In this document: one piece after another, positions 5,120 through 42,557 of the stretch
How positions within the stretch are numbered: position 1 is the stretch's first letter
How the letters are laid out: every line of letters starts with the position of its first letter
From: Nemertoderma westbladi
Lineage: Eukaryota; Animalia; Xenacoelomorpha
Length of the DNA stretch: 64,000 bases
Direction of reading: 5' to 3'
NCBI GenBank assembly: GCA_032718475.1
Contig: JAUCBJ010005882.1
Coordinates: forward strand, 11,281 to 75,280
Notes under the pieces: model-generated
Seen by the model: the letters and a program-made list of their open reading frames with translations, nothing else
Databases searched by the model: none
Told to the model about the DNA's origin: nothing
Translations under genes and position numbers: made by a program

Positions 5120-5342
5120 CACTTCCTGGTTGACGAGATGAGCCAAGAACCTAGAGGAAGACAGACTGGGGGTCTTTAGGTTCCGTCTGTAGCCTTTACG
5201 GAAGGTGAGAATCAGTCGCTTAACGACCAGTTCGCCAATCTGTGGAAACTTCGTGTTTATAACGGATACGAGAGCCGCGTAGACGTTAGTGAAGGTAGGT
5301 GAGGCTGACTGGGCCTGGATTACAGACCGGGAGAATAAACCT
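5120..5342 (-). CDS. CWC22: CWC22 exon 4 (MIF4G)
   Basis: ttccctgtag acceptor and GTG|gtgag donor. Encodes [74 protein letters not shown]. The 5' boundary assumes the most proximal acceptor is used. Confidence 0.93.
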
Positions 5343-5712
5343 CTACAGGGAAATAAAGCGGAGTTAGTGAAGGTAGGTGAGGCTGACTGGGCCTGGATTA
5401 CAGACCGGGAGAATAAACCTCTATAGGGAAATAAAGTGGAGTTAGTGAAGGTAGGTGAGGCTGACTGGGCCTGGATTACAGAGCGGGAGAATAAACCTCT
5501 ATAGGGAAATAAAGTGGAGTTAGAGAAGGTAGGTGAGACAGACTGGGCCTGGATTACAGATCGGGAGAATAAACCTCTATAGGGAAATAAAGTTGAGTTA
5601 GTGAAGGTAGGTGAGTCTGACTGAGCCTGGATTACAGACCGGGAAAATAAACCTCTATAGGGAAATAAAGTGGAGTTAGTGAAGGTAGGTGAGGCTGACT
5701 GGGCATGGATTA
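5285..5712 (-). repeat. 78-bp tandem repeat, proximal block (about 5.5 units, including the real exon-4 start)
   Basis: Unit on the minus strand is tccactttatttccctatag|AGGTTTATTCTCCCGGTCTGTAATCCAGGCCCAGTCAGCCTCACCTACCTTCACTAAC. The last unit runs directly into unique exon-4 sequence. Confidence 0.97.
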
Positions 5713-5999
5713 TATAAGCAGTAGGTAATTATTCTATAACACAATACAATCCTGTAATCCAGTGTATAATATTAGTAGTACAACAATCCAGCAATATTAT
5801 AATTAGTAATACAGCGGTACAATAATTAGGCAGAACAACCTCACTCTGCCAGCTTTACATGTAGGCCTAACCCTCCACCTGTCACACTGTACTGTACATC
5901 TGTATGTATCTCTTAACCTCAGTTCAGCCAGTCCGGTACCGGTACAACCCACATTCGTACATCCCTCTATTGGGCCATGGCCTCTTATTTCCCCTTATA
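5713..5999 (-). repeat. 3' LTR (287 bp)
   Basis: Bounded by TATAAG...CTTATA and immediately preceded on the minus strand by the polypurine tract GGGGGGAG (6007-6000). Confidence 0.75.
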
Positions 6000-6064
6000 C
6001 TCCCCCCAGTTCATTAATGAACTAATCTTGAATTGTCACACATGTGGAAATCATAATTTTACTT

Positions 6065-9000
6065 TCAGTTTATATTAATCCCATATCTCATAGGTGGTCT
6101 TGACACTCGTCCCGTACGCAATCTATAGTGCTCTCCTGGTTCTTCAACTGCGTTTGCATTGGTATAATCGACAGTTTCCTCCAAACTTTCATTTGCAACA
6201 ATATTATCTTCTTCATTTGAGCTAGATTCACTGTTACTATCACTATAATTCTGGTGTTGTACGGGTACTGTTGTGCAGTACTGAGCAGTACTGAGATTAT
6301 TTGGGCTTATCTGCCCACATTCCGCTTTCCTAATGTCTTGTATATGTCGCTTGTATCCACCTGCTATAACTGACCAAGAATCTGGAACCGCCTCAATTAT
6401 CAGTGGGCCTCTCCATTTTGTGTGGCACTTTACATGTTGTTTCGGCTTAATATATACAAATTCCCCAATTTTAAACTTATATTCCATTTCCGGTTCTGTT
6501 GCAATAACTTCCGTAACACCTGGTAATTTGGTGATATGATTTGAGGTAAGCAGTTCCCATGGTGACTTATTTCCATGTGATGCAGTCCTGTTATACCAAA
6601 AGGCAATTTGCGTGGGTTCTTTGCCTGTTCTTGCTGCCCATGTCTTAATAGTTCTATGGGATCTTTCAACTATATTCCCTTGTGGTCTATAAGTGCACGA
6701 GGTCCGGTGTTTAACTTCCCATTTTTCCAAAAATTGTTTTGTTTCTTTACTCCTAAAAGCGGGTCCATTATCAGACAATAACTCTTCTGGGGGCCCCCAC
6801 TCAACAAATACTTGCTGCAATTCCTTTATAACTGCCTCTGCAGTTTCTTTATTAACTTTACGCCATATAGTAAACCCGGTAGCGCAATCGACCATTGTCA
6901 GATATTGGTTTTTATTTTCATCCTCTGTGAAGTCAGTTGATAGTCTTTCCCACCCTCGCTCCATCTTACAAGTTCCTTTTTTCACTGCAGTAACAGGATT
7001 TGGATCTATGTATTTGCATTTATTACAGCTATTGCACACTTCTTTGACTAATTTCCTTGTCACATTCATTGTCTGTAATTCTCTAAGTGCTTAGGCTGTA
7101 GCGGAGTACCCTAAACTTTTAAATTGTGAACTAATTTTTAAATTTAATTATATTTTAACGCGATTTTAATTGAATATACTGCTGAAGACGCCCGCGAGGG
7201 TGAAATGGCCATACGGTAAATAATTAACTTCATTTTTTATATATCCACGTGGTGAAAGACCCTTCCTTGCCTTTATTAATCCTGTAATTATGAATACGCC
7301 ACGTAAAACGTTGTTCCGGTTAATCCAAAACCTAAGTTTATCGAATTCCGTATCATTGTTACATAACATTTGAGTACGATCCGTATCTGTATGAGCAATT
7401 TGATGAATCTCTTTAATTCTCTCAATCACGTGTGCTTTGTTGCAAGGAACATTGTGTGCTTGTATTCCTATTCCTGCTATTTCCCTTATGTTTTTATTTT
7501 CGTCATTCCCCTTTAACCATGATTTCGGAACTCTGGTTAAGCAATCTGCCAGGTTCTTAGCAGATGTAATTTGCTGTATTGTCACTTTTATGCCATATTC
7601 ATCCACCGTCCTCTTTAATAGCTATAATCGTCTTCTTATTAACATTTTTGATAGACCTTTTGTCTTCAAACGGTGCTCATCATTCAACATTGATTTGATC
7701 CAACCATATGCTGAGCTCGAATCTGTATATATCGTAATTGTTTTAAGACCCCACTCAATAGCAATGTTTAACCCCTCAATGATCGCAGTCAGTTCTGCCG
7801 CATTTATATGCTCAGGGTCATCGTCTTTTCTCAACCATGCTCTATCCTCGGCGACTACCCCACCAATCTTCACTAACGCCCCAATGGCTATTGTACTTGC
7901 GTCGGCCCATACTTCTCCTACGTGAGTCTTCATTATTGGCCACTGACCTTGTGAGGGATCTACTTTATTGACTCTATCTACCACCTCAATGAGTTTCTTT
8001 CTAGTGTTCTCACTGATAGGATCATCCATGCTAACTGATGATTATTGGCGTTGTAGCCACCCACATGCAACGCGCAACCAACCAGAAATTAAATAATTAC
8101 CTCGGAGTTGACCAATCACAGCCAATAATTTTCGATGGGTCACTATCCCTTGAATAGATTCTATTGTCGGTAAATCGCTGTCTCTGATCCATCGACCATC
8201 CTTCACATACACTCCCAATATTCGAGCCCCATTTTTAACCTCCACTGGTTCTTTAGATTCAAGCCCAAATTTCTTCAAATGATTTCTAACATCATCAGCT
8301 GTAATTCCAGAATCCAGGTCCACATAGACATCATCACGGAAACTTTCTGTGGCTCTCTCAATCTTCTCGTCTTGTTTTAGCACAGTCTCTACAATATTGT
8401 CAAGTATCTTTGGTGCTGGGCCCAGTCCAAAACCAAGCTTGGTCATACAATATCGTTTGTCCTTATACTCAACAACTTGGTATGGATGCAGTTTAGAATG
8501 CACATTGACCTGCATATAGGCCCACTTCAAGTCAATCAGTGCTGTCCTTTCACCCATGGTAGCCCACTTTCTCAGTTTCTCAACACTGGTAGCTGATTCC
8601 GTTCAAGGTTCATTTATAATAAATTGATTCAATTTTCGAAAATCCATTATCGGACGTACTCGATCTTTTTTGGTTCATTTTTGTACATTAGAGGAATGAG
8701 TGCTTTTGTTTCCCCGTGAAATTCTTTTAACCATTCACCCATGCCAATATCAAACTTCTCCCGTAGTTCCTGGGGAATTTTGTATTGCTTTACTCTATTA
8801 GTCAGTTTGTCTGGGTTTTGTCCAGTGATGAATATATACTCTGTTTCCCATTATATTGAGATTGTAATCAAAGCTTCAGGATTAATATTTCCAACTGCAC
8901 TCATTAATTGTAAATTTGGGACTGAATTAAACAGCACACTAACAGTGTCTTTCGGCCCACATTGAATGGAGATCCCCCCCATTTTTTTTATAATGTTCCA

Positions 9001-9342
9001 TCCTATAACTAAGTCTAAGCCCCCAACCATGTCTACAATAACTAAAAATTCACATTTAGGCAAAGTGACATTATTAATTCTAATTTGTGTTTCAATTGTC
9101 CCCATAATCATATCTGTTTTTGTACCATCTAACATTGAAATAGTGTTTCCAGCCATCTTTCGATCTAAAATCCCATTAATCCTAGCACTACATTTATGTG
9201 AGACAATCGACTGCCTACAACCAGTATCTATTAACCCATCTACTGCAATTCCACCACATTCTGCCTTTATAATTGGCAGATCGCCCATTATTTTAGGGAA
9301 ACGGCCACTAGCGCATATGCCGTTCCCCTCTACTCGTTTCCC
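6065..9342 (-). pseudogene. pol: Retrotransposon pol (protease, RT, RNase H, DDE integrase) broken by stops, frameshifts and an insertion
   Basis: Protease LIDTGC (8851-9288). RT IDLKWAYMQ, LGFGL and FRDD (8042-8557). RNase H WADAS, AAEL and YTDS (7622-8029). Integrase STDF, SDNGPAF and VERSHRT (6065-7069). Confidence 0.92.
7094..7332. mobile_element. About 240-bp secondary insertion in the integrase zinc-binding region
   Basis: Non-coding block separating H..AH (7400s) from C..C (7030s) of the integrase HHCC motif, flanked by CTTAGG...CCTAAG. Confidence 0.5.
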
Positions 9343-10330
9343 TAGCTCTGTAGCCTTCCACTTGGCCGCATGGAACTATCTGCTCCAGTATGTTTGCAGT
9401 ACAGTTGCGAGCTATGTAGTCTGGTCCTCCACATCTAAAACAATTACTGGCAATCGAATCCCTATAGTTGTGGTAACTTGATTCTCCCCAACATTCTCGT
9501 GCATAATGTCCACTTTTTCCACATCTGAAGCAGTTAATCCCAAATCCTTGGCCTCGACCCCGGGATATATTTACTTGCCCTCGGCCAATTCTGAAATTTC
9601 CTCCATCTCTACCACGACCAGTTGTAAGATTGCCTATCTCTCGTCCCCGACCGAAACTTGTCCCATCTCGCTCTCGATGGAAACTTCCACCTCCTCGGGG
9701 ATTTTGGAAATTTCCAGGAAATCCTCCAGCAGCTCCAACAGATCCAATTGGATACGGTAGGCCGACAACTAATCCCCCTGCAGCTCCTACGGTGCCAGAA
9801 TCCTTATGTTGTTCTGACAATAATCTGCGGGCCTGAACAATTAGATTGTTCAGTTCCAATCCATCAACTAAAGCTTTGACCTCCCCAGCTATCCTTTCAG
9901 GAAGAACACTGACGAACTGCAGAGCAATAATTATATTAGCTACAACTGTCTCTACCGCGTTTAGTTTTATTTCATCAGACACTAATCCAAACAGTCGTTT
10001 TAAATCGGCTAGGTACGTATCCGCTGCCTCCCCATCCTGCAGTTTCCGTATCTTAAACAGTTCGTAGGCAGTATACTCGCTAACAGCAAATGCAGATATT
10101 AATGCCTTCTTTATTAGGTCACAATCTTGCTTTTCGGCGTTAGATAACTGACTCACTACTTCATACGCTGACCCATCTAACGACAATCGTAAATAAGTTG
10201 CCCGCGCCTCCTCTTTTAATCCAGCCTCGACCACTAATACATCATAAGTGTCATTAAATATCGCCAGCCACTGACTCGGATCTGTACTACCATTATACTT
10301 CTTAACATCATCTGAGAGTTTTGGAGCCAT
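9308..10330 (-). CDS. gag: Retrotransposon Gag with CCHC zinc knuckles
   Basis: 340-aa ORF containing CFRCGKSGHYAREC and a degenerate second knuckle CFRCGGPDYIARNC. The C-terminus is probably frameshifted. Confidence 0.88.
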   Translation of the reverse strand: MAPKLSDDVKKYNGSTDPSQWLAIFNDTYDVLVVEAGLKEEARATYLRLSLDGSAYEVVSQLSNAEKQDCDLIKKALISAFAVSEYTAYELFKIRKLQDGEAADTYLADLKRLFGLVSDEIKLNAVETVVANIIIALQFVSVLPERIAGEVKALVDGLELNNLIVQARRLLSEQHKDSGTVGAAGGLVVGLPYPIGSVGAAGGFPGNFQNPRGGGSFHRERDGTSFGRGREIGNLTTGRGRDGGNFRIGRGQVNISRGRGQGFGINCFRCGKSGHYARECWGESSYHNYRDSIASNCFRCGGPDYIARNCTANILEQIVPCGQVEGYRARETSRGERHMR

Positions 10331-10333
10331 GTT

Positions 10334-10345
10334 GCCCGGTTAGCT
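10334..10345 (-). promoter_or_regulatory. Putative primer-binding site AGCTAACCGGGC
   Basis: Directly abuts the 5' LTR. Its complement GCCCGGTTAGCT resembles the first 12 nt of eukaryotic tRNA-Lys (GCCCGGNTAGCT). Confidence 0.55.
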
Positions 10346-10552
10346 TATAAGATATAATAAGTAATATCAATCGTAATATCATTAATATCAATCACACACT
10401 ACTCCAGAATCAGGTTTATATTAACTCCTGCACTCAATACACCACCGGTAGGCCTACTCAGTCGTTCCACCCTAACTATCTACCTGTTTTAATTTACCGC
10501 CACCTTATATATATCGCAACTCAACCCACAGAGTCTCTTATTGTACCTTATA
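10346..10552 (-). repeat. 5' LTR (207 bp) with TATA box
   Basis: Bounded by TATAAG...CTTATA. TATATATAAGG at about 10513-10503 on the minus strand. Followed by a 15-nt leader and the gag ATG. Confidence 0.7.
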
Positions 10553-13500
10553 GATTACAGACCGGGAGAATAAACCTCTATAGGGAAATAAAGTGGAGTT
10601 AGTGAAGGTAGGTGAGGCTGGCTGGGCCTGGATTACAGATCGGGCGAATAAACCTCAATATGGAAATAAAGTGGAGTTAGTGAAGGTAGGCGAGACTGAC
10701 TGGGCCTGGATTACAGAGCGGGCGAATAAACCTCTACAGGGAAATAAAGTGGAGTTAGTGAAGGTAGGTGAGGCTGGCTGGGCCTGGATTACAGATCGGG
10801 CGAATAAACCTCTATAGGGAAATAAAGTGGAGTTAGTGAAGGTAGGTGAGGCTGACTGGGCCTGGATTACAGATCGGGCGAATAAACCTCTATAGGGAAA
10901 TAAAGTGGAGTTAGTGAAGGTAGGTGAGGCTGACTGGGCCTGGATTACAGATCGGGCGAATAAACCTCTATAGGGAAATAAAGTGGAGTTAGTGAAGGTA
11001 GGTGAGGCTGACTGGGCCTGGATTACAGATCGGGCGAATAAACCTCTATAGGGAAATAAAGTGGAGTTAGTGAAGGTAGGTGAGGCTGGCTGGGCCTGGA
11101 TTACAGATCGGGCGAATAAACCTCTATAGGGAAATAAAGTGGAGTTAGTGAAGGTAGGTGAGGCTGGCTGGGCCTGGATTACAGATCGGGCGAATAAACC
11201 TCTATAGGGAAATAAAGTGGAGTTAGTGAAGGTAGGTGAGACTGGCTGGGCCTGGATTACAGATCGGGCGAATAAACCTCTATAGGGAAATAAAGTGGAG
11301 TTAGTGAAGGTGGGTGAGGCTGGCTGGGCCTGGATTACAGATCGGGCGAATAAACCTCTATAGGGAAATAAAGTGGAGTTAGTGAAGGTAGGTGAGACTG
11401 GCTGGGCCTGGATTACAGATCGGGCGAATAAACCTCTATAAGGAAATAAAGTGGAGTTAGTGAAGGTAGGTGAGGCTGGCTGGGCCTGGATTACAGATCG
11501 GGCGAATAAACCTCTATAGGGAAATAAAGTGGAGTTAGTGAAGGTAGGTGAGACTGGCTGGGCCTGGATTACAGATCGGGCGAATAAACCTCTATAGGGA
11601 AATAAAGTGGAGTTAGTGAAGGTAGGTGAGGCTGGCTGGGCCTGGATTACAGACCGGGAGAATAAACCTCTACAGGGAAATAAAGTAGAGTTAGTGAAGG
11701 TAGGTGAGGCTGACTGGGCCTGGATTACAGACCGGGAGAATAAACCTCTATAGGGAAATAAAGTGGAGTTAGTGAAGGTAGGTGAGCCTGACTGGGCCTG
11801 GATTACAGACCGGGAGAATAAACCTCTATAGGGAAATAAAGTAGTGTTAGTGAAGGTAGGTGAGGCTGACTGCGCCTGGATTACAGACCGGGAGAATAAA
11901 CCTCTATAGGGAAATAAAGTGGAGTTAGTGAAGGTAGGTGAGGCTGACTGGGCCTGGATTACAGATCGGGCGAATAAACCTCTACAGGGAAACAAAGTGG
12001 AGTTAGTGAAGGTAGGTGAGGCTGACTGGGCCTGGATTACAGACCGGGAGAATAAACCTCTATAGGGAAATAAAGTGGAGTTAGTGAAGGTAGGTGAGGC
12101 TGACTGGGCCTGGATTACAGATCGGGCGAATAAACCTCTACAGGGAAACAAAGTGGAGTTAGTGAAGGTAGGTGAGGCTGACTGGGCCTGGATTACAGAG
12201 CGGGCGAATAAACCTCTACAGGGAAACAAAGTGGAGTTAGTGAAGGTAGGTGAGGCTGACTGGGCCTGGATTACAGACCGGGAGAATAAACCTCTACAGG
12301 GAAATAAAGTAGAGTTAGTGAAGGTAGGTGAGGCTGACTGGGCCTGGATTACAGAGCGGGCGAATAAACCTCTATAGGGAAATAAAGTGGAGTTAGTGAA
12401 GGTAGGTGAGCCTGACTGGGCCTGGATTACAGACCGGGAGAATAAACCTCTATAGGGAAATAAAGTAGTGTTAGTGAAGGTAGGTGAGGCTGACTGCGCC
12501 TGGATTACAGACCGGGAGAATAAACCTCTACAGGGAAACAAAGTGGAGTTAGTGAAGGTAGGTGAGGCTGACTGGGCCTGGATTACAGATCGGGCGAATA
12601 AACCTCTACAGGGAAACAAAGTGGAGTTAGTGAAGGTAGGTGAGGCTGACTGGGCCTGGATTACAGACCGGGAGAATAAACCTCTACAGGGAAATAAAGT
12701 AGAGTTAGTGAAGGTAGGTGAGGCTGACTGGGCCTGGATTACAGAGCGGGCGAATAAACCTCTATAGGGAAATAAAGTGGAGTTAGTGAAGGTAGGTGAG
12801 GCTGACTGGGCCTGGATTACAGAGCGGGCGAATAAACCTCTATAGGGAAATAAAGTGAGTTAGAGAAGGTAGGTGAGGCTGGCTGGGCCTGGATTACAGA
12901 CCGGGAGAATAAACCTCTATATAGGGAAATAAAGTGAGTTAGAGAAGGTAGGTGAAGCTGACTGGGCCTGGATTACAGACCGGGAGAATAAACCTCTATA
13001 GGGAAACAAAGTGGAGTTAGTGAAGGTAGGTGAGGCTGACTGGGCCTGGATTACAGACCGGGAGAATAAACCTCTATAGGGAAATAAAGTGGAGTTAGTG
13101 AAGGTAGGTGAGACAGACTGGGCATGGATTATAGAGCGGGAGAATAAACCTCTATAGGGAAATAAAGTGGAGTTAGTGAAGGTAGGTGAGGCTGACTGCG
13201 AGCCTGGATTACAGAGCGGGCGAATAAACCTCTATAGGGAAATAAAGTAGAGTTAGTGAAGGTAGGCGAGACAGACTGGGCATGGATTACAGACCGGGAG
13301 AATAAACCTCTATAGGGAAATAAAGTGGAGTTAGTGAAGGTAGGTGAGGCTGACTGCGAGCCTGGATTACAGAGCGGGCGAATAAACCTCTATAGGGAAA
13401 TAAAGTGGAGTTAGAGAAGGTAGATGAGGCTGACTGCGAGCCTGGATTACAGAGCGGGCGAATAAACCTCTATAGGGAAATAAAGTGGAGTTAGTGAAGG

Positions 13501-14420
13501 TAGGTGAGGCTGACTGGGCCTGGATTACAGACCGGGAGAATAAACCTCTATAGGGAAATAAAGTGGAGTTAGTGAAGGTAGGTGAGGCTGACTGGGCCTG
13601 GATTACAGAGCGGGCGAATAAACTTCTATAGGGAAATAAAGTGGAGTTAGTGAAGGTAGGTGAGGCTGACTGGGCCTGGATTACAGACCGGGAGAATAAA
13701 CCTCTATAGGGAAATAAAGTAGAGTTAGTGAAGGTAGGCGAGACAGACTGGGCATGGATTACAGACCGGGAGAATAAACCTCTATAGGGAAATAAAGTGG
13801 AGTTAGTGAAGGTAGGTGAGGCTGACTGCGAGCCTGGATTACAGAGCGGGCGAATAAACCTCTATAGGGAAATAAAGTGGAGTTAGAGAAGGTAGATGAG
13901 GCTGACTGCGAGCCTGGATTACAGAGCGGGCGAATAAACCTCTATAGGGAAATAAAGTGGAGTTAGTGAAGGTAGGTGAGGCTGACTGGGCCTGGATTAC
14001 AGACCGGGAGAATAAACCTCTACAGGGAAATAAAGTAGAGTTAGTGAAGGTAGGTGAGGCTGACTGGGCCTGGATTACAGACCGGGAGAATAAACCTCTA
14101 TAGGGAAATAAAGTGGAGTTAGTGAAGGTAGGTGAGGCTGACTGGGCCTGGATTACAGACCGGGAGAATAAACCTCTACAGGGAAATAAAGTAGAGTTAG
14201 TGAAGGTAGGTGAGGCTGACTGGGCCTGGATTACAGACCGGGAGAATAAACCTCTATAGGGAAATAAAGTGGAGTTAGTGAAGGTAGGTGAGGCTGACTG
14301 GGCCTGGATTACAGACCGGGAGAATAAACCTCTATAGGGAAATAAAGTGGAGTTAGTGAAGGTAGGCGAGACAGACTGGGACTGGATCAAAGACCGGATC
14401 AAGTCAATCCCTGGGGAATT
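10553..14420 (-). repeat. 78-bp tandem repeat, distal block (about 49 units)
   Basis: Same unit as 5285-5712, near-identical copies. The outermost copy (about 14352-14420) is diverged and is preceded by unique intronic sequence ttatttaattccccag. Confidence 0.97.
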
Positions 14421-15210: not shown

Positions 15211-16247
15211 GCAGAGGCAGTTAAGTTAGCAGCTGCAGAAACAGTTCCTGTATACCCTCGAAACAGGAAACGGGCCCCCTGGATTGACAACAAAATTCAG
15301 AAGTGTCGAAATGACCTCTACAAGGCGCAGAAAGAGTCCCGACTCAAACAGACTACAGCGGCCAAGAATGCAGTTAAGGCTGCATCCTAGGTCCCTGAAC
15401 AGGCAGTACTCTGTTAATTTACAGGAGCTAATAAACTAACAGGTTGATGCCATCAATGATGCTGACGACAGCAGGCAATCATCCCAGGCATGGAGATCGA
15501 TCAACTTGGTTGCTGGTCGAAAAAGCCAACCAACCACCAAGGTTAAGGCTGAATCACCAGCCGATCGCCTCAATGGTTGGAAGGCCCACTTTGAAAAGCT
15601 CCTCAATAGTGACCGGGTATTGCCTGATAACTTTATAGAAGTAAAAGGATCATGGATCGGGAAGTCAGATGAGGACCTTCGAATACGTAAGGGAAAGGCA
15701 TGGGCAGCCTTGAATAGGCTTTCCAGGATTTGGAAGTCACCGAGAATTAATCGGAAACTTAAGGTCCGATTATTTAGAGCAGCAGTAGTTCCAGTACTCC
15801 TCTATGGGAGTCCATGCTGGGCTCTAACTGCTGAGGACACCAAATCTCTGGATGGCACATTCACAAGAATGCTACGCCGAGTTCATTGTGTCAAGTACAA
15901 TGCACAGCACACATCTTCAACCAGACACTATATAACATTGGAGGTGTCTCATTGGTTCCCCCAAGCTTGACACTAGAACAAAATCGCCTCCGCTTTGCAG
16001 GACATTGCTTTCGCCGTGAGGACCAGCCAGTGCATAATCTTGTACTTTGGCAGCCTCATGGAGTGAATAAGCATGGTGGACAGCCCATGACTTTCTTGAG
16101 ACGCATCTTAAAGGACACTGGCCTTGAAGATGCGGATGATCTAGCAAATGTCATGGGTGATAAGGAGTTGTGGCGGTGCAATTTTACGATAAGCCGGCAC
16201 AGCATTCTTAAAAATGCAGCTGCAATGCAGCATGCCGATCCTAGTAG
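15211..16247 (+). mobile_element. RTE-clade LINE derivative lacking the RT core
   Basis: 12-bp TSD TACTAAATAGAA (15199-15210, 16248-16259) and a (TAG)n tail. Post-RT peptide KVRLFRAAVVPVLLYGSPCWALT...RLRFAGHCFR is fused directly to the pre-RT linker WKAHFEKLLN. Confidence 0.88.
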
Positions 16248-16910
16248 TACTAAATAGAATGAATAGCCCAAACGGATAGTAGGGCAGTCTACCCAGAAAA
16301 TAAGGCTAGTTTTATGGAGCTAAAACTAATCTGTTTTGTTTATTATGGGTAGGTTGGATGTCTCGAATGAAAAGGGACCCTGTAATGGCTGTATCAAAAT
16401 TGTAATTAGCTGAACCAATAATCGAACAATTAACGATTGTACACATCGCATGCAATATATTAGTTTCTGCATTTATGTGTGTTGCACTCATGATGAATAC
16501 AGTTTTGTACTCGAAACGTTTGTTGGTTAGTTTTATTAAACAATGAGTTTTAGGATATTCGCGCATGTTAATCTTTTCCTTATACTGTCCATTGCATCTG
16601 CCACTGAAATATGCGAGCGTCTAAATATTTTCTAACCAAAACAATAAACCAAATAGGAGAACGCATGTTATATTATAGCAATGTTAAAGGAACAAGAACT
16701 AATGCCTATACTAGTGCTATATGCTAAACTAATGCCTATACTAATGCCTATACCCAAGAAAAAACGAAACGCAAACTGGAAATAAACAATTGTGCATTAA
16801 AATATCCTGGTACAAATATATAAATACACAATCCACAAAGATGCCGGTATTGTAAATTTATATAATATAGAGCACTACATACTACAGTAGGCCTACTATA
16901 CAACACAAAC

Positions 16911-22468: not shown

Positions 22469-24690
22469 CGGTCCTACTAATTACCCCAACCTACCCCAAC
22501 CTACCACAAACTACCACAATCTACCACAATCTACCCCAACAATTCGATACAGGCATCTAATTACCACAATGTTATTTTACAATGGCATCTAATTACCACA
22601 ATATACAGAACTCAAGTGTCTATTTACCACAAGACTACACTGCATCTAATTACCACAATATTATTTTACAATGGCATCTAATTACCACAATATACAGAAC
22701 GCAAGTGTCTAATTACCACAAGACTATACTGCGTCTAATTACCACAATCTATTTACGAACAAGACTACACTGCACACTGCATCTAATTACCACAATATTA
22801 TTTTCCAATGGCATCTAATTACCACAATATACAGAACGCAAGTGTCTAATTACCACAAGACTATACTGCGTCTAATTACCACAACACTATACTGCGTCTA
22901 ATTACCACAACACAACACTGCGTCTAATTACCACAATCTATTTACCACAAGACTACACTGCATCTAATTACCACAATATTATTTTACAATGGCATCTAAT
23001 TACCACAATATACAGAACGCAAGTGTCTAATTACCACAAGACTATACTGCGTCTAATTACCACAACACTATACTGCGTCTAATTACCACAACACAACACT
23101 GCGTCTAATTACCACAATCTATTTACCACAAGACTACACTGCATCTAATTACCACAATATTATTTTACAATGGCATCTAATTACCACAATATACAGAATG
23201 CAAGAGTGTCTAATTACCACAAGACTATACTGCGTCTAATTACCACAATCTATTTACCACAAGACTACACTGCATCTAATTACCACAATATTATTTTACA
23301 ATGGCATCTAATTACCACAATATACAGAATACAAGTGTCTAATTACCACAACACTATACTGCGTCTAATTACCACAATCTATTTACCACAAGACTACACT
23401 GCATCTAATTACCACAATATTATTTTACAATGGCATCTAATTACCACAATATACAGAACGCAAGTCTCTAATTACCACAACACTATACTGCGTCTAATTA
23501 CCATACCACAACGCTATACTGCGTCTAATTACCACAACACAACACTGCGTCTAATTACCACAATCTATTTAAGAACAAGACTACACTGCACACTGCATCT
23601 AATTACCACAATATTATTTTACAATGGCATCTAATTACCACAATATACAGAACGCAAGTGTCTAATTACCACAAGACTATACTGCGTCTAATTACCACAA
23701 CACTATACTGCGTCTAATTACCACAATCTATTTACCACAAGACTACACTGCATCTAATTACCACAATATTATTTTACAATGGCATCTAATTACCACAATA
23801 TACAGAACGCAAGTGTCTAATTACCACAAGACTATACTGCGTCTAATTACAACAAGACTATACTGCGTCTAATTACCACAAGACTATACTGCGTCTAATT
23901 CCACAATCTATTTACCACAAGACTACACTGCATCTAATTACCACAATAATATTTTACAATGGCATCTAATTACCGCAATATACAGAATGCAAGTGTCTAA
24001 TTACCACAACACTATACTGCGTCTAATTACCACAATCTATTTACCACAAGACTACACTGCATCTAATTACCACAATATTATTTTACAATGGCATCTAATT
24101 ACCACAATATACAGAACGCAAGTCTCTAATTACCACAACACTATACTGCGTCTAATTACCACAATCTATTTACCACAAGACTATACTGCATCTAATTACC
24201 ACAATATTATTTTACAATGGCATCTAATTACCACAATATACAGAACGCAGTGTCTAATTACCACAAGACCACACTGCATCTACTGTAATTACCACAATAT
24301 ACAGAATGCAAGAGTGTTTAATTACCACAATATACAGTACGGTAGTTATTAATATTCAGTGTCTAATTACCGCAAAACTTCACTAACGTCTAATTACCAC
24401 AATATACAGAACTCAAGTGTCTAATCACGGGTAGGACTAAAAACCCAAACGGACCCAAACGGTACCCAAACGAACCCAAACGGTGGAATACGGAGTTATA
24501 TCAACAGATGTTATAGTTGCCACAACGGGGAAACAATTATACGATTATATGAAATCATAATTACAGTAATGCAGCTTTTTGTGTTTTACATTCATGAAGA
24601 ACACAAAAAACGGTGCCAAGCCCGTATAAATGCAGAGGCTCATCTATCAACCACGCTACTTTACACGTATATGATATACAATAGACATCA
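22469..24690 (+). repeat. Left inverted arm built of TCTAATTACCACAA-cored subrepeats
   Basis: Dozens of TCTAATTACCACAA cores with a few recurring spacers in higher-order units, then a unique GGGTAGGACTAAAAACCC block. Mirrored at 28866-30719. Confidence 0.92.
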
Positions 24691-26606
24691 TTAAAAAAAT
24701 TAATCAAAAAAATAAAATAAAGTACAGTGTATTTTCTGAACGGGCATTTATCAGGGCAGGGCATTTGTAAATAAATTCCAAGGGCAAGGGCAAGGGTTCT
24801 GTTGTGCTCTGGGATATGTGGGCACAATTTACTGTAGGACACACAGTTATCACAATTGGTGGTGGAGAATGATATTTATAACATAAGCGACATTTACAGT
24901 AGCAAATATGTGAAAGAATTATGTATTTCAATCCATCGTTATTATTCGTGGAAGAGTTTCAGCGAGAAGAGTCAAAATTATGTCAACCTCGTACAGTACA
25001 AATTTCAACAGAATGGACGTGATTAATTACTCTGCAAAATTTTACTCTTAATCATAAAATCGGCCCACCCATCTATGAAATACTGGAAAACGGTGAAGGA
25101 AGAATTACGGATACTGTACCAGAAACGAACGAGACACAGGAAATACATAATTTGTAAGTTTAAATACTTTATTGAAGTAATAAAATTAACCAATAAATTA
25201 ATTGTGTTTAAACACCATTTAATTCCGAATAAAAATAGCCTTAGTTTATATAAATCAATTATTGGGGCACAATTTCAGTATATTATATCCATAACGAAAT
25301 CAGTTTATTTCATTTAGTAATAAGTTCTACAGTATATAGGTAGGTGAGTCTGTCGGTAGGTCAGTTGGTTAGTCTGTCGTTCAGTCTGTCGGTGGGTTAG
25401 TTGGTCACTCAGTCGTTCAGTCTGTCGGTTGGTTGATTGGTCGGTAGGTCAGTTGGTTAGTCTGTCTGTCAGTCGGTTGGTCAGTCTTTCATTCAATCTG
25501 TCGGTCAGTTTGTTGGTTGGTTGGTTGGTCTTGTGGCAGTTGGTTTTGTATGTGAGTCCGTCGGTCGGTTGGAAAATTTATCATTCAGTCTGTTGGTTGG
25601 TCGGTCAGTTGATGGATCGGTACGTCAGTTGGTTAGTCTGTCAGTCGGTCGGTCGGTTGGCTGGTCAGTCTGTCGGTCAGTCTCTCGGTCGGTTGGTCAG
25701 TATTTCGGTCAGTCTGTTGGTCGGTTGGTCAGTCGGTTGGTCAGTCAGTCGCTCAGTCTGTCAGTCGATTGGTCAGTCTGTCGGTCAGTCTGTTGGTCGG
25801 TCGGTTGGTCAGACTGTCGGTGGGTCTGTCAGTGTGTACCAAAAAAAAATTGTAAAAAAAGGTTAATTAAGCAATATTATATTATACAGTAATTAACCAC
25901 AGTAACTTTTAGAGGCTGAAATGAAGGAAGTGAGAGATGATAACAAAAGATTTCAATCCCGGTCCCTATTGGCTACCAATGTGAATTATCTACACGGCTA
26001 TTGGTAGATGGAAGGAACCCTTGCAGTACAAATAGTAATGGTACTACATGCATTAAGTCAATACATGCTTACTCTCTTCAGCTGATTTTATTTTTATCCA
26101 ATCATTGTGTGTGTGGCAAGGTAGCTTACAGAATCTTTGCTATTTTGCTAATTCTTTAAATTAAACTGCACAATAATAGCTTCACCCACACATATCCCAC
26201 AACCTATTTTTGTATATTCACATTTATAAGTGCCAACATCGCATCCATGTGATGGATGCGATCTGCCATCCTCTGCCAATCTCTGACAGTGTCAAAGGCA
26301 GTTTGGGTTGGGTTTAGAAATACAGTTCAGGTAGACATTCCGCACATTAAATTTATACAGAAATTTATACTGTCCTACTGATGGGATTCATACAGTATAT
26401 ACAAATTATAAATTCAGCCAGATATTTTATTAATATTGCCATTACTGTTTGCAATAGTTTTATACGAATATAATATATATTTTATACGCTTTTGTTGTGG
26501 ATTGCTCATCGGCTTGTGGATTCAGACGAATAAAGGATAATGAAACCAAAGGTATTATTCCCGAAATCGAAAGCATTATTCCCATGTGGAACCTGTTTAC
26601 TAAATT

Positions 26607-27653
26607 GTGAAACAAATCAACCCGCTATTATTTTGCGATCAATGCAGGATATGGTTCCATAAAGATTGTGAACAACTTAGTGAATCAACTATAGAAATGT
26701 TAAGTAGTCCAAATTTCGATAACATTGAGTACCTTTGTAGTCGGTGCGTAGAATTTCACGGGAAGTTTGATTTTATGGCATCGCTTGATCGCCTGGGAAA
26801 ATCAATTATTAACGATAACCTCGATAAAGCTATCGTAATGGAGGAGATATTTCTTCGCTCCAAAACAACAATAAATGTAAGTATTATTGATATTTACGAC
26901 ACTTTCGTCAATCTTGCCAACTCTGGGCTGACCATGTACTGTAAATTACTGTTGGTCATTGTTGACGTTAAACATCTCAAAGACGATATAAGTCGATACC
27001 TAATTAATAAAGTTGGCTGCGATGGGGACGAACGCAATGCTATCATAGGTATTATATTCGGTCCGAATGGTATTGCAAAAAGTTGTGATGAACATACGTT
27101 CAATACTCGTTTATTCGAGCTTATGCCCTTTTTAACAAAGTACCCAGTATTCGATAAGTACTTTGATACCCATGTGCGGGATACCTTGTATGAAAATATT
27201 TGTGTTCCACACCAAATGGGCTGTCACGAAAAACTGTGGACCAACAATAACTGCGAGTCCATCAACAATATACTAAAGGTCACTATCGATTGGCATCCAA
27301 AGAAATTGCCAGAACTAATAAGACATTTACACTCAGTAAGCGATTTACAAATGAGTGACCTTAGGCGAGCCCTATATGGTACAGGTAATTACGTTTTGTC
27401 CAATAAATTTCAAAAGTTTAGAGTTTCTCGCAACGTCTGGTTGCAGAAAACTGAAGCCCAAAAAGATAAGCTGGTAATGGACTTTATCCATAAGCGACTA
27501 CCATGTAGTGGATCTGGTCAACCTAAAGGGGAATCCGAAGTAATATTTTCAAAAGATAAAATATTCACGATGCCTAGAAGAAAAGGAACTGCAAAAAAAC
27601 CCCAACAACGCAAACGTCCCAAGAGCGAGCGCACCCGCATAATACAAAGATGA
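26607..27653 (+). pseudogene. PHD finger fused to the C-terminal part of a MULE-type transposase (internally deleted)
   Basis: CDQCRIWFHKDC...YLCSRC is a partial PHD finger. WTNNNCESINNILK is the catalytic-Glu motif typical of MULE transposases. Basic NLS-like tail. The N-terminal DDE part is not seen. Confidence 0.7.
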
Positions 27654-28865
27654 TTTATTTTCAGTCAGCCGAACTGACCGACCGTCTATCTAACTTAAGA
27701 TGGTACACACTGACAGACCCACCCACAGCCTGACCAACCAACCGACAGACTGACCAACCGACCGACAGACTGACCAACCGACCGACAGACTGACCATCCG
27801 ACTGACCCACTGACAATCAAACTGACCGACCAACACACTGACTGACAAACTGACCAACCGACCGAGAGACTGACGGGCAGACTCACCAGTGACCAACCGA
27901 CCGACTGACCGATAGACTAACTAACTCACCTACCGACAGACTCACCGACAGACTGACCAATAGACTGACCGACAGATTGAATGACAGACTGACCAACCGA
28001 CAGACTAACCAACTGACCTACCGACAGACTCACCTACCAAAGAACTTAATACTAAATGAAATAAACTGATTTCGTTATGGATATACTGTAATATACTGAA
28101 ATTGTGCCCCAATAATTGATTTATAGGAACTAAGATTATTTTTATTAGGAATTAAATGATAAAGCGCTACTTTATACATAATGATGTCCATTGTATATCA
28201 TATACGTGTAATACATATTGTTTTGGTTAGAATAACGTAGCAGTTTAACTAGCTCCTCTCCCTTAATTGGATGCTTTACCATTGAAACGAGATATAAATT
28301 ATCCAATTGCTTTCAGCCACCCCCCCCCCCCCCCCCCGTATAAATAAAGCGCTACTTTATACATAATGATGTCCATTGTATATCATATACTGTACATGTA
28401 AAGTAGCGTGGTTGATAGATGAGCCTCTGCATTTATACGGGCTTGGCACCGTTTTTTGTGTTCTTCATGAATGTAAAACACAAAAAGCTGCATTACTGTA
28501 ATTATTATTTCATATAATCGTATAATTGTTTCCCCGTTGTAGCAAATACAGTATAACATCTGTTGTGGCGATTGTGTCCCCCGTTGTGGCGATTGTTTCC
28601 TCCGTTGTGGCAACTATATCCTCCGTAGTGGCGATTGTTTCTTCCGTTGGGGCAACTATAACATCTGTTGTGGCGATTGTTTCCAGAGGGCGGCAACTTT
28701 AACTATAACACCCAACAATAAATACTTTTTATTTCAATAACTAAGTATACAGTACTTTAAATAGGGGGGTCTTTCGATACAAACGATATTTACAGAAATA
28801 ACAACTGATCTTTCAGCCCCCCCCCCCCCCCCCCCCCCCCCGTATAAATAAAGCGCTACTTTATA

Positions 28866-30719
28866 CATAATGATGTCCATTGTATATCATATACGTGTAA
28901 AGTAGCGTGGTTGATAGATGAGCCTCTGCATTTATACGGGCTTGGCACCGTTTTTTGTGTTCTTCATGAATGTAAAACACAAAAAGCTGCATTACTGTAA
29001 TTATTTTTCGTATAATCGTATAATTGTTTCCCCGTTGTGGCAACTATAACATCTGTTGATATAACTCCGTATTCCACCGTTTGGGTTCGTTTGGGTACCG
29101 TTTGGGTCCGTTTGGGTTTTTAGTCCTACCCGTGATTAGACACTTGAGTTCTGTATATTGTGGTAATTAGACGTTAGTGAAGTCTTGCGGTAATTAGACA
29201 CTGAATATTAATAACTACCGTACTGTATATTGTGGTAATTAGACACTCTTGCATTCTGTATATTGTGGTAATTAGATGCCATTGTAAAATAATATTGTGG
29301 TAATTAGATGCAGTGTAGTCTTGTGGTAAATAGATTGTGGTAATTAGACGCAGTATAGTGTTGTGGTAATTAGACGCAGTATAGTCTTGTGGTAATTAGA
29401 CACTTGCGTTCTGTATATTGTGGTAATTAGATGCCATTGTAAAATAATATTGTGGTAATTAGATGCAGTGTGCAGTGTAGTCTTGTTCGTAAATAGATTG
29501 TGGTAATTAGACGCAGTGTTGTGTTGTGGTAATTAGACGCAGTATAGCGTTGTGGTAATTAGACGCAGTATAGTCTTGTGGTAATTAGACACTTGCGTTC
29601 TGTATATTGTGGTAATTAGATGCCATTGTAAAATAATATTGTGGTAATTAGATGCAGTGTAGTCTTGTGGTAAATAGATTGTGGTAATTAGACGCAGTGT
29701 TGTGTTGTGGTAATTAGACGCAGTATAGTGTTGTGGTAATTAGACGCAGTATAGTCTTGTGGTAATTAGACACTCTTGCGTTCTGTATATTGTGGTAATT
29801 AGATGCCATTGTAAAATAATATTGTGGTAATTAGATGCAGTGTAGTCTTGTGGTAAATAGATTGTGGTAATTAGACGCAGTGTTGTGTTGTGGTAATTAG
29901 ACGCAGTATAGTGTTGTGGTAATTAGACGCAGTATAGTCTTGTGGTAATTAGACACTCTTGCATTCTGTATATTGTGGTAATTAGATGCCATTGTAAAAT
30001 AATATTGTGGTAATTAGATGCAGTGTAGTCTTGTGGTAAATAGATTGTGGTAATTAGACGCAGTGTTGTGTTGTGGTAATTAGACGCAGTATAGTGTTGT
30101 GGTAATTAGACGCAGTATAGTCTTGTGGTAATTAGACACTCTTGCATTCTGTATATTGTGGTAATTAGATGCCATTGTAAAATAATATTGTGGTAATTAG
30201 ATGCAGTGTAGTCTTGTGGTAAATAGATTGTGGTAATTAGACGCAGTGTTGTGTTGTGGTAATTAGACGCAGTATAGTGTTGTGGTAATTAGACGCAGTA
30301 TAGTCTTGTGGTAATTAGACACTCTTGCATTCTGTATATTGTGGTAATTAGATGCCATTGTAAAATAATATTGTGGTAATTAGATGCAGTGTAGTCTTGT
30401 GGTAAATAGATTGTATTAATTAGACGCAGTGTTGTGTTGTGGTAATTAGACGCAGTATAGTGTTGTGGTAATTAGACGCTGTATAGTATTGTGGTAATTA
30501 GACACTTGCGTTCTGTATATTGTGGTAATTAGATGCGCAGTTAGTCTTGTGGTAAATAGACACTTGCGTTCTGTATATCATGTATATTGTGGTAATTAGA
30601 TGCCATTGTAAAATAATATTGTGGTAATTAGATGCCTGTATCGAATTATTGGGGTAGATTGTGGTAGATTGTGGTAGTTTGTGGTAGGTTGGGGTAGGTT
30701 GGGGTAATTAGTAGGACCC
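28866..30719 (-). repeat. Right inverted arm
   Basis: Reverse complement of the left arm (TTGTGGTAATTAGA cores) with a different subrepeat number. Confidence 0.92.
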
Positions 30720-36832: not shown

Positions 36833-39615
36833 TACTACTACTACTACTAGGATCGGCATGCTGCATTGCAGCTGCATTTTCAAGAATGGTGTGCCGTCTT
36901 TTCAACAAAATTGCGCCGCCACAACTCCCTCTCATTAATTACATGTGCTAGATCATCCGCACCTTCGAGGCTAGTGTCCTTTAACCCTATTAAACCCGGG
37001 GGGGGGGGGGGTCAATATGACCCCCCCCCGTGGTTTTTTTATTATAATTCTGAAACAAACGCAGTTGGGAATCTGAAATTTTATGACTTTTCCTAAAAAT
37101 CTATTGTCTTCATGGTAGTGAAAACCGTTTTCAAAAATATTTGGTACTTTTCGAGTTATAGCACCATTTTTTAACCCTACTTTTGGCACTTTTTTTGAGA
37201 CGTTTTTTGAAAATTACATTTCATTAAATATGAATTGTAACATCTCTATTTTTGATTTACACCGGTTTTTTGGTGTTAGAAATTGGATGGAATTCATATA
37301 AATTGATTTAGAAATTTCAAACTTGTTTTTTTCGATGGGTGCCAAATTTTGGTGCCAGCACCAAATTTTGAAATAAGTCAATTTTGTAAATTGATTGTTT
37401 GAAACTTGTTTTTTACGCAATTGGGGTTTTTTGGGGTTCTGGATTCGATGAAATATATACGAGTTGCACCAAGCGTATCAAACTTATATTTTTCGGTGCT
37501 GTGTGCAAATTTTGGTGCTAGCACTAAATTTTGAAAATCCATTCAATATATAAAATTGCTTGTGACAATTTATTTCTTGCGTTTTAGAGGTTTATGGCTG
37601 TTCTGAATTCAATGGAAAATATAATTATCGAACTAGACATCTCAAACTTGTATTTTTCGGATGTGGGTGCAAAATGTGGTGCTAGCACCAAATTTTGAAA
37701 ACCATCAAATATATCAATTGATTGTGTCACCTTGTTTCTTGCGTTATACGGGTTTGTGATGGTTCTGAATTCAATGGAATCAGTAAAAATTTCATAAGAG
37801 TTCTCAAACTTGTATTTTTCGCCGGTGGGTGAAAATTGTTGTGCCAGCACCAAATTTTGGAAAATATGCAAATTGATAAGTAGATAGTATCACCTTGTTT
37901 CTTGCGTTATACGGGTTTATGGGGGTCCTGAATCCGATGGAATCAATAAAAACAGCACTGGACATCGCAAACTTGTACTTTTTGGTGATGGGTACGAAAT
38001 TTGGTGCTAGCACCAAAATTTGCCAAATTACGCCGAAAAATACAAGTAGCAATGATCTGGCATATTAGAAATGTATTACATTAGAATCAGCGCCCTCGAA
38101 AACCTGAAAATGTAAATTTATAGCATCGTATAAGTGAATTAAAAATTTTGAGTTTTAACTGAAAAGTGCTGGTTACTTGTTTTTTTCATTTTTTTCCTAC
38201 GCAGAGAGGACTAAACAGCCATTTATAGTAATCATATCATTTTTAAATATTTTCCAATGTATTATGCACCCCAAAAAACCTGTATTGAAAAATAATTAGC
38301 CGAAAATGTATCTTTCAAATTTTGTGAAAATTGTGCACTACTTGTAATTTTGGTGCTGCAATATAACCACCCCAGTACATTTTTTAGAAATTTTTTTTTT
38401 TCGGTCGGATCCAGACAAGTGATACCTACGTACAAACAAAAAATCAGACGTTTTCGTAAATATTTGTAGATTTTAGAGGGGGGGGGGGGGGGGGGTCAAT
38501 ATGACCCCCCCCCCCCCCCCCCGGTATTTGTACAACATTTTATAGCCCGGTACTAATAGGGTTAAGATGCGTCTCAAGAAATTCATGCGCTGTCTACCAT
38601 GGTTATTCACTCCATGAGGCTGTCACAGCACAAGATTATACACTGGCTGGTCCTCACGGCAAAAGCAATGTCCTGCAAAGCGGAGGCGGCTTTGTTCTAG
38701 TGTCAAGCTTTGGGGAACCATTGAGACACCTCAAATGTTATATAGTATCTGATTGGAGATGTGTGCATTGTACTTGACACAGGGAACTCGCGTAGTATTC
38801 TTGTGAATGTGCCATCCAGAGATTTGGTGTCCTCAGCAGTTAGAGTCCAGCATGGACTCCCATAGAGGAGTACTTGAACTACTGCTGCTCTAAATAATCG
38901 GACCTTAAGTTTACGATAAAATTTGAGTGACTTCCAAATCCTGGAAAGCCTATTCAAGGCTGCCCATGCCTTGCCCTTGCCTTGCCATGGTGTGCCCCTA
39001 CTTTTACTTCTATAAAGTTATCGGGCAATACCCTGTCATTATTGAGGAGCTTTTCAAAGTGGGCCTTCCAACCATTGAGGCGATCGGCTGGTGATTCAGC
39101 CTTAACCTTGGTGGTTGATTGGCTTTTCCGCCCAGTAAGCAAGTTGATCGATTTCCATGCCTGGGATGATTGCGTAGCTGCTGTCGTCGGCATCATTGAT
39201 GGCAACAACCTGTTGGTTTATAAGCTCCTGTATATTAACAGAGTACTGCCTGTTCAGGGACCTAGATGCAGCCTTAACTGCATTCTTGGCCGCTGTAGTC
39301 TGTTTGAGTCGGGACTCTTTCTACGCCTTATGAAGGTCATTTCGGCACTTCTGAATTTTGTTGTCAGTCCAGGGGGCCCGTTTCCTGTTTCGAGGGTATA
39401 CACGAACTGTTTCTGCAGCTGCTAACTTAACTGCTTCTGCGAAGGCAGTATAACCCTCGCAGTGATCTGCTGCCTCAGAGGCAAGAACCTCATACCTGTT
39501 GCTCAGATGTAGTGTGAAGCTGGATCTCACACTTGGCTGCTGCAACAGAGAGGACCGACCAGTCATGCCGCGGCAAGGCGGATTTCATTGTTCTGCTACA
39601 GTAGCACGCAGACTT
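36833..39615 (-). mobile_element. RT-deleted RTE LINE copy split by a piggyBac-like insertion
   Basis: (TAG)n tail at 36833-36850. Homologous to 15211-16247 but extends further 5' (LHLSNRYEVL). Interrupted at TTAA 36981/38562. Confidence 0.88.
36985..38561. mobile_element. piggyBac-like non-autonomous element
   Basis: TTAA TSD, CCCTATTA...TAATAGGG termini, (G)nTCAATATGA(C)n palindromes near both ends, internal TGGTGCTAGCACCA repeats. Confidence 0.85.
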
Positions 39616-41988: not shown

Positions 41989-42557
41989 TACTACTACTAG
42001 GATCGGCATGCTGCATTGCAGCTGCATTTTTAAGAATGCTGTGCCGACTTGTCAACAAAATTGCACCGCCAAAACTCCCTATCACCCATGACATTTGCTA
42101 GATCATCCGCATCTTCAAGGCCAGTGTCCTTTAAGATGCGTCTCAAGAAAGTCATGGGCTGTCCACCATGCTTATTCACTCCATGAGGCTGCCAAAGTAC
42201 AAGATTATGCACTGGCTGGTCCTCACGGCGAAAGCAATGTCCTGCAAAGCGGAGGCGATTTTGTTCTAGTGTCAAGCTTGGGGGAACCAATGAGACACCT
42301 CAAATGTTATATAGTGTCTGGTTGGAAATGTGTGCATTGTACTTGACACAATGAACCCGGCGTAGCATTCTTGTGAATGTGCCATCCAGAGATTTGGTGT
42401 CCTCAGCAGTTAGAGCCCAGCATGGACTCCCGTAGAGTACTGGAACGACTGCTGCTCTAAATAATCTGACCTTAAGTTTCCGATTAAATCTCGGTGACTT
42501 CCAAATCCTGGAAAGCCTATTCAAGGCTGCCCATGCCTTTCCCTTACGTATTCGAAC
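41989..42557 (-). mobile_element. 5'-truncated RTE copy
   Basis: (TAG)n tail at about 41989-42000. RIRKGKAWAALNRLSRIWKS... is near-identical to 15680-16247. Confidence 0.88.

What the first reader, a model, noticed from the sequence alone, without database searches (positions are those of the whole stretch)
5713..10552. Gypsy element with a perfect TSD but two essentially unalignable LTRs
Seen: the 5' LTR (207 bp) and 3' LTR (287 bp) share only their termini and short motifs (TATAAG start; GTAGGCCTA; CAACCCACA; CTCTTATT....CCTTATA end). PBS, PPT and the GATTA TSD are all correctly placed, and the coding region has only a handful of lesions. Known: reverse transcription normally makes identical LTRs, so modest decay should leave them alignable. 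Inference, three options: inter-family plus-strand transfer through a shared PBS; recombination between two different elements inserted at the same GATTA of different repeat units; or a lineage with intrinsically asymmetric ends.
Basis: partly seen in the sequence, partly recalled or inferred. Interest (0 to 1): 0.7.

Follow-up and report, generated by a model that had tools for sequence, protein, structure and literature searches.

The report
Hybrid of two jumping-gene families
This retrotransposon has two different end repeats because its decayed front part and intact back part come from two sister families, joined at the matching point of the integrase gene with a piece of a third element between them, likely when a DNA break was patched; separately, its whole group carries an unusual primer site that would pair with the start of a tRNA rather than its end.

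Summary
In detail: the 207-bp and 287-bp LTRs give no blastn match, and both sides carry GATTA. The cause is a chimera, not an asymmetric lineage. In contigs of the same organism (two studies), LTR B follows both a PPT and a PBS in a family with its own gag-pol. LTR A also occurs away from a PBS, and family A has its own integrase. A stops and B starts in register inside the integrase zinc finger. A is decayed (about 2% from contigs, four stops); B is nearly pristine (1 of 1373). The most likely origin is inferred: a Penelope cut in an old A insertion was repaired with B DNA, keeping the old TSD. Mixed-particle reverse transcription is the main rival. Relatives have ordinary identical LTRs. 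Side result: 45 of 61 related families carry a 12-nt primer site that matches tRNA nucleotides 1-12 rather than the CCA end; I did not find this in print.

The parts
5285..5712 (.). 78-bp tandem array, left part (5.5 units)
   Evidence: unit table
5708..5712 (.). GATTA, left copy of the 5-bp target duplication (also part of the repeat unit)
5713..5999 (-). 3' LTR, family B type (287 bp)
   Evidence: 0 other letters to X1 record 1; joint 9343->5713 in X1, X2, X3; follows the PBS in X2, X3
6000..6009 (-). polypurine tract, family B
   Evidence: sequence; same G-rich tract before LTRs of relatives
6068..7085 (-). family B integrase from the Cys pair of the zinc finger to the stop; open frame
   Evidence: rve E 5.8e-17; 1 other letter in 1373 to X2 record 9
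7086..7355 (+). 270-bp piece of a high-copy repeat, Penelope-like pseudo-LTR type, opposite to the Gypsy sense
   Evidence: depth 2045-2599 against 114-249 beside it, opposite-strand joints, staggered loose ends; boundaries from loose ends at 7085/7086 and 7356
7177..7218 (+). type I hammerhead ribozyme motif (helix I 5 bp, extra base before helix II, palindromic helix III)
   Evidence: only hit on either strand of the window; 0 of 2000 shuffles of the insert; no Rfam hammerhead hit
7356..8041 (-). family A RNase H, linker and His pair of the integrase zinc finger; stop near 7624
8042..8685 (-). family A reverse transcriptase with DUF7047; stops near 8044 and 8605, frame change near 8680
8686..9375 (-). 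family A aspartyl protease and linker; stop near 8853, deletions against contigs
9308..10330 (-). family A gag with CCHC knuckle; small indels near 9390
10334..10345 (-). 12-nt primer-binding site, complementary to tRNA nucleotides 1-12; shared by A and B
10346..10552 (-). 5' LTR, family A type (207 bp)
   Evidence: 1 other letter to contigs; non-PBS neighbour in X2 and X3
10553..10557 (.). GATTA, right copy of the target duplication
10553..14397 (.). 78-bp tandem array, right part (49 units)

Best explanation
The element is a single hybrid of two sister Ty3/gypsy families, a decayed A front part and an intact B back part joined in register with a Penelope-like piece between them, and it likely arose after insertion, when a break in an old A copy was patched with B DNA. 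Shown (about 0.93): three-part anatomy, B+B family, own integrase of family A, in-register junction, age difference. Inferred (about 0.45): a Penelope-like endonuclease cut the resident A copy in the integrase zinc finger; the A sense-strand end primed copying of 270 nt of pseudo-LTR RNA (the polarity fits); the other broken end was resected and paired with a sense strand of the young B family, held in register at the break and at the terminal TATAAG hexamer that both LTRs share; B then replaced the 3' part of A while A's original GATTA duplication stayed. The product cannot make a whole integrase and is a dead end.
For:: X2 record 9 (4361 nt) matches 5713-7085 with 1 other letter, then runs on unlike; joint 9343->5713 in 3 of 4 runs; loose end behind 7085 in X1 and X2, and a skip joint from 7085 in X3; in X2 and X3 a contig matches the PBS and TATAAG up to 10351 and continues with the letters of LTR B; LTR A has a non-PBS neighbour before 10346 in both; family A runs on unlike the window before 7356 in both (1011 nt in X3); the A part ends at column 990 and the B part starts at column 991 of an alignment with 19 relatives; by hand, 11 + 19 = 30 residues lie between the second His and the first Cys, against 28-30 in four relatives counted; a random break would fall within about 2 codons in roughly 0.3-0.4% of cases (my estimate). 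A part 49 of 2498 (X3) and 47 of 2245 (X2) differences against 1 of 1373 for B (Fisher p 1e-8, 4e-9); all four stops lie in A; hammerhead motif in the insert, followed by an ATG-led frame open to the right junction. Capture of transposon cDNA and of several fragments at breaks is described in PMC11724301 (passages); Penelope 5' truncation and pseudo-LTR hammerheads in PMC8557442 and PMC4209133 (passages).
Against: No listed contig bridges either junction, so the chimera rests on the window's assembly (contigs drop rare variants). No contig showed an A-A allele at this site, which the model predicts existed. A+A is indirect: the 353 nt that X3 record 16 carries beyond the LTR could not be read, and depth is no copy number. 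A and B differ by more than 15% over most of pol, which hinders strand pairing, and the far join would rest on 6 bp. The age test uses only the longest listed pieces (7 of 8 for X3, the worse of two overlapping pieces dropped; 8 of 8 for X2) and may include subfamily differences; without the gag contig it is 11 of 1175 (p 0.002). The insert's Penelope identity rests on a motif, depth and inverted joints, not on a protein match.
Confidence: 0.47

Rival explanations
1. Mixed-particle origin: RNA of a decayed A copy was packaged with B RNA; minus-strand synthesis switched from B to A in register, the A plus-strand strong-stop DNA transferred through the shared PBS, and integrase inserted the hybrid once, making a true TSD. 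The insert came with the A donor or patched the junction.
For: Shared PBS and terminal hexamer. Inter-family cross-packaging and template switching are reviewed in PMC6894440 (passages). It gives a TSD and two whole LTRs without a 6-bp join. No contig in X1 or X2 ran over the ends of a stretch holding 23 nt of flank, which fits a young private insertion but is weak.
Against: Ordinary reverse transcription gives identical LTRs, so a further intermolecular step is needed (Lauermann and Boeke 1997: title seen in a reference list, paper not held, content recalled). The insert lies antisense to what the Gypsy RT would copy from a Penelope RNA, and the switch would have to fall exactly on the insert's edge.
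Confidence: 0.27
2. Two independent insertions, old A and young B, at GATTA of different 78-bp units (same array or homologue), later joined by recombination or deletion with a captured filler.
For: GATTA recurs in every unit and sits in a symmetric context, CTG-GATTA-CAG. It explains the age difference. Chimeric centromeric retrotransposons from genomic recombination are known in maize, there with mismatched TSDs (PMC4806543, passages).
Against: It needs the same phase and orientation in a 4.3-kb array. The one other LTR A neighbour seen is not this repeat. Homologous recombination would leave no filler, and end joining would not be in register.
Confidence: 0.13
3. Assembly misjoin of an A copy and a B copy through the high-copy insert.
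For: The junction is a high-copy repeat and no contig bridges it.
Against: It needs the same repeat at the homologous codon of both families and both copies in phase in the same array. The assembly resolves about 55 distinct repeat units.
Confidence: 0.05
4. A lineage with intrinsically different 5' and 3' ends.
For: Only the window itself.
Against: LTR B serves both ends in three runs. 26 of 30 informative relatives collapse to integrase-PPT-one LTR-PBS. Four relatives with both LTRs and flanks are 96.3-97.2% identical between LTRs.
Confidence: 0.02

Closest known systems
Chimeric CR retrotransposons of maize centromere 10 (PMC4806543; passages read)
   Same: Halves of different subtypes joined by genomic recombination or break repair inside tandem-repeat DNA.
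   Different: Those carry mismatched TSDs and alignable LTRs; here the TSD matches, the LTRs are from different families and a third element lies at the join.
Inter-family recombinants from reverse transcription, e.g. Ty1/Ty2 and plant cases reviewed in PMC6894440 (passages read; the Ty1/Ty2 label is recalled)
   Same: Sequence of two families in one element, switch at a homologous position.
   Different: Those progeny have two identical (possibly mosaic) LTRs and can found lineages; this copy has one whole LTR of each family and a broken integrase.
Penelope-like element pseudo-LTR with hammerhead (PMC4209133, PMC8557442, PMC11167929; passages read)
   Same: Short helix I, extra base before helix II, palindromic helix III, truncated and inverted copies, 3' end inside the ORF start, no TSD.
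   Different: Only 270 bp; no RT or GIY-YIG sequence seen, so a non-autonomous retrozyme-type derivative is not excluded.
Non-canonical priming: Tf1 self-priming, internal-tRNA priming of Copia elements, Conserved Hairpin Site of fungal GalEa (PMC5445492; passages read)
   Same: A short site right after the 5' LTR that does not match a tRNA 3' end.
   Different: Here the site matches tRNA nucleotides 1-12; no own-strand complement (1 of 57) and no 12-nt palindrome.

Membership tests
Ty3/gypsy LTR retrotransposon | gag then PR-RT-RNase H-integrase order | tested here: met
   Pfam zf-CCHC, Asp_protease, RVT_1 (weak, below cut-off), RNase_H, rve in this order
Ty3/gypsy LTR retrotransposon | RT phylogeny inside Metaviridae, named clade | not tested
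   No reference RT set was on hand; the profile of relatives hits Ty3 Gag-Pol and retroviral integrases in PDB; relatives are unnamed DUF7047-bearing Pol proteins, 36-46% identical
Ty3/gypsy LTR retrotransposon | two near-identical LTRs | tested here: not met
   Not met for this copy; met for family B and relatives
Ty3/gypsy LTR retrotransposon | PPT before the 3' LTR and short TSD | tested here: met
   5-bp duplication exact in 1, one mismatch in 2, absent in 1 of 4 relatives with flanks (read by hand)
Ty3/gypsy LTR retrotransposon | PBS complementary to a tRNA 3' end (TGG start) | tested here: not met
   Site starts AGCT in the window and in 45 of 61 related families
   B+B shown; A has its own 3' part
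Penelope-like element (insert 7086-7355) | type I hammerhead in the pseudo-LTR | tested here: met
   Descriptor hit, 0 of 2000 shuffles; Rfam gave no hit; minimum-energy fold recovers only part of it; cleavage untested
Penelope-like element (insert 7086-7355) | high copy, truncated and inverted copies | tested here: met
   Depth 9-23 times that of the B integrase in X1-X3; opposite-strand joints; staggered ends
Penelope-like element (insert 7086-7355) | telomerase-like RT and GIY-YIG endonuclease | not testable with these tools
   The piece holds only about 20 codons of an ATG-led frame; contig sequence beyond 30 letters is not returned
Tf1-type self-priming elements | PBS complementary to the element's own 5' sequence | tested here: not met
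   No match at 2 mismatches in the window's element; 1 of 57 in relatives at 1 mismatch

The most novel reading that the evidence does not exclude
The widespread DUF7047-bearing Gypsy clade to which both parents belong primes reverse transcription with the first 12 nucleotides of a host tRNA, cut free in the D stem after pairing (a Tf1-like cut made on a tRNA in trans): a priming mode distinct from 3'-end, internal-tRNA and self-priming. The shared site would also let sister families exchange ends, as in this hybrid.
Probability: 0.55. Interest if true: 0.7.

Novelty: new variant of a known kind. Interest (0 to 1): 0.42.

Why it matters
The chimera itself is a dead single copy. It shows that a matching TSD does not guarantee one insertion event, and that LTR divergence dating can fail outright. 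It also preserves an unusually precise record of break repair among three mobile elements. The wider point is the primer site: PBS searches usually use tRNA 3' ends (PMC13524379 used the last 12 nt; passages) and would miss this clade. If 5' tRNA pieces prime it, 5'-tRNA fragments gain a direct role in retrotransposon replication, testable by primer mapping.

Tried and rejected
No whole genome is held, so copies could not be counted or paired directly. No RNA holder was listed. Viral contigs held no relative of the RT. Rfam found no hammerhead, and the single-strand fold was not significant (z -1.05). No other copy of the element, insert or 78-bp unit lies elsewhere in the window. The repeat-unit variants show no clear break across the insertion, which does not decide between models. 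The line on 'loci with gag N-terminus' was contaminated by a false query and is not used. Run X5 covered almost only the insert. Parts without contig cover and unbridged junctions are not treated as evidence of absence. Earlier scan notes had nothing on this genome or sequence. Lauermann and Boeke 1997 is not held. Simple decay of identical LTRs was rejected: each LTR is within 0-1 letters of its own family contigs.
Full report
Observation. The element lies on the minus strand at 5713-10552 inside a 78-bp tandem array (5.5 units left, 49 right). The 5' LTR (A, 10346-10552, 207 bp) and 3' LTR (B, 5713-5999, 287 bp) both read TATAAG...CTTATA, GATTA lies on both sides, and a G-rich tract precedes LTR B. 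blastn at word size 7 finds no match between the LTRs. Global alignment still exceeds 300 of 300 shuffles under three scorings (z 3.0-4.5; 2.3-2.6 without the termini), so they are distant homologues. Pfam gives gag knuckle, protease, RT (weak), RNase H and integrase in Ty3/gypsy order.

Two parent families. No genome is held, so I laid Logan contigs of the same organism on the element (X1 and X3 are one sample, X2 a second study). One X2 contig of 4361 nt matches 5713-7085 with 1 other letter and then runs on unlike the window. A joint 9343->5713 appears in X1, X2 and X3 but not X5, so LTR B also follows a gag side. In X2 and X3 a contig matches the window's PBS and TATAAG to 10351 and continues with the letters of LTR B. 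Family B therefore has LTR B at both ends, its own gag-pol, and the same PBS. For family A, contigs match from 7356 on and run on unlike the window before it (1011 nt in X3). LTR A has a neighbour other than the PBS in both studies, and X3 record 16 runs 353 nt past its U3 end at a depth (304) like that of the A integrase contig (286). A+A is thus strongly implied but not read directly.

A third piece. Between the two parts, 7086-7355 has depth 2045-2599 against 114-249 in the B integrase, with opposite-strand joints and staggered loose ends. It holds a type I hammerhead motif at 7177-7218 on the plus strand, the only descriptor hit on either strand of the window and absent from 2000 of 2000 shuffles. 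Its short helix I, extra base before helix II and palindromic helix III are features given for Penelope-like elements (PMC4209133, passages). An ATG-led frame runs from about 7293 to the right junction, as expected if the 3' end lies in the ORF start (PMC11167929, PMC8557442, passages). Rfam did not detect the motif, and no Penelope protein could be tested.

The junction is in register and the halves differ in age. Added separately to an alignment of 19 relatives, the A part ends at column 990 and the B part starts at column 991, between the His pair and the Cys pair of the integrase zinc finger. By hand the two parts give 30 residues between second His and first Cys, against 28-30 in four relatives. 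I estimate 0.3-0.4% for such a fit by chance. The A part differs from the longest listed contig pieces at 49 of 2498 (X3; 7 of 8 pieces, the worse of two overlapping ones dropped) and 47 of 2245 positions (X2; 8 of 8), against 1 of 1373 for B. Without the gag contig X3 gives 11 of 1175 (p 0.002). All four stops and the frame changes are in A. Some differences may be subfamily differences, but the stops show decay.

Relatives. A metagenome scan gave 79 loci (61 families at 85% over 500 nt). Of 30 primer sites with an integrase upstream, 26 (22 families) read integrase-PPT-one LTR-PBS, the collapsed form of identical LTRs. Four loci with both LTRs and flanks have 96.3-97.2% identical LTRs. LTRs align over half their length in 0 of 12 pairs at 70-79% integrase identity, 1 of 1 at 81% and 4 of 4 at 99-100%. 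Unalignable LTRs are normal between sister families, and the clade is not asymmetric.

How it formed (inferred). A model must give a TSD, two whole LTRs, register, an insert exactly at the join, and an old A with a young B. Repair after insertion does so with one cause. A Penelope-like cut in a resident A copy primes the 270-nt insert from the A sense-strand end. The other end is resected and pairs with a B sense strand at the break and at the shared terminal hexamer, B replaces the 3' part, and the old TSD stays. Capture of transposon cDNA and of several fragments at breaks is described in PMC11724301 (passages), and cDNA as a conversion template in PMC7251063 (passages). Its weak points are pairing between sequences more than 15% apart and a 6-bp far join; no A-A allele was seen. 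Mixed-particle reverse transcription (PMC6894440, passages) gives the TSD freely but needs an intermolecular plus-strand transfer and a switch exactly at the insert's edge. Two insertions in phase need two coincidences. No contig bridges the junctions, so a misjoin is unlikely but open. Odds: 0.47, 0.27, 0.13, 0.05, and 0.02 for an asymmetric lineage.

Primer site. The 12 nt after LTR A do not start TGG. The motif AGCTA-N4-GGC occurs 62 times on the sense strand (56 of 79 loci) and 3 times on the antisense strand; 55 follow CA, 2 follow TA, and 52 have an ORF of 100 residues or more within 80 nt. It is present at an LTR end in 45 of 61 families; some of the other contigs are partial. Its complement begins a tRNA gene in 98 of 120 viral loci for the window's variant (Val 49, Lys 28, others) and in 22 of 79, 8 of 40 and 11 of 25 for three common variants. 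This test is partly circular, because three recalled D-arm letters were added to the patterns, and viral tRNAs only stand in for host tRNAs. That the common variants are 5' ends of eukaryotic tRNA-Phe and tRNA-Lys is recalled. An own-strand complement was found for 1 of 57 sites, so Tf1-type self-priming is not supported. Six paper searches, passages of PMC13524379, PMC5445492 and PMC7472051 and two look-ups in scan notes showed no report of it. Repbase Reports, subscription journals and supplements were not seen. The scan notes listed palindromic and self-priming sites in other clades, which I did not check.

Verdict. The finding reduces to a one-off chimera, a new variant of a known kind (compare PMC4806543, passages; first search, listing only), with an unusually precise junction. 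Interest 0.42, lifted by the primer-site result, which would deserve 0.7 if confirmed and unpublished.

Noticed in passing
window 10334-10345; L001-L079: Clade-wide primer site AGCTA-N4-GGC directly after the LTR end: 62 sense hits in 56 of 79 loci against 3 antisense; its complement is tRNA nucleotides 1-12.
   Followed up: partly
window 5713-5718, 10346-10351, 5994-5999, 10547-10552: Both families end TA...TA, whereas 55 of 62 sites in relatives follow CA and only 2 follow TA.
   Followed up: partly
window 22470-24693 and 28868-30718 (also about 25216-25689 and 27709-28158): Large inverted repeat with internal tandem arrays around an ORF with a PHD finger at 26604-27650; foldback-like element or captured exon.
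   Followed up: no
window 15211-16111 and 38562-39440; 15678-16252 and 41989-42556: Dispersed inverted copies at 90-96% identity, unclassified repeat.
   Followed up: no
window 45174-46793, 54029-54910, 55611-57119, 59837-62068, 63142-63999: Long uninterrupted host ORFs: LRR protein, thiamin pyrophosphokinase, group 1 glycosyltransferase, a 744-aa ORF without Pfam hit, weak axonemal dynein light chain; an intron-poor, repeat-rich eukaryote.
   Followed up: no
window 12815-13916: The 78-bp array holds higher-order blocks with 77-, 79- and 80-bp units.
   Followed up: no
window 7792-7826 and 7461-7468: Contigs of family A skip or replace these stretches (joints): subfamily variants.
   Followed up: no
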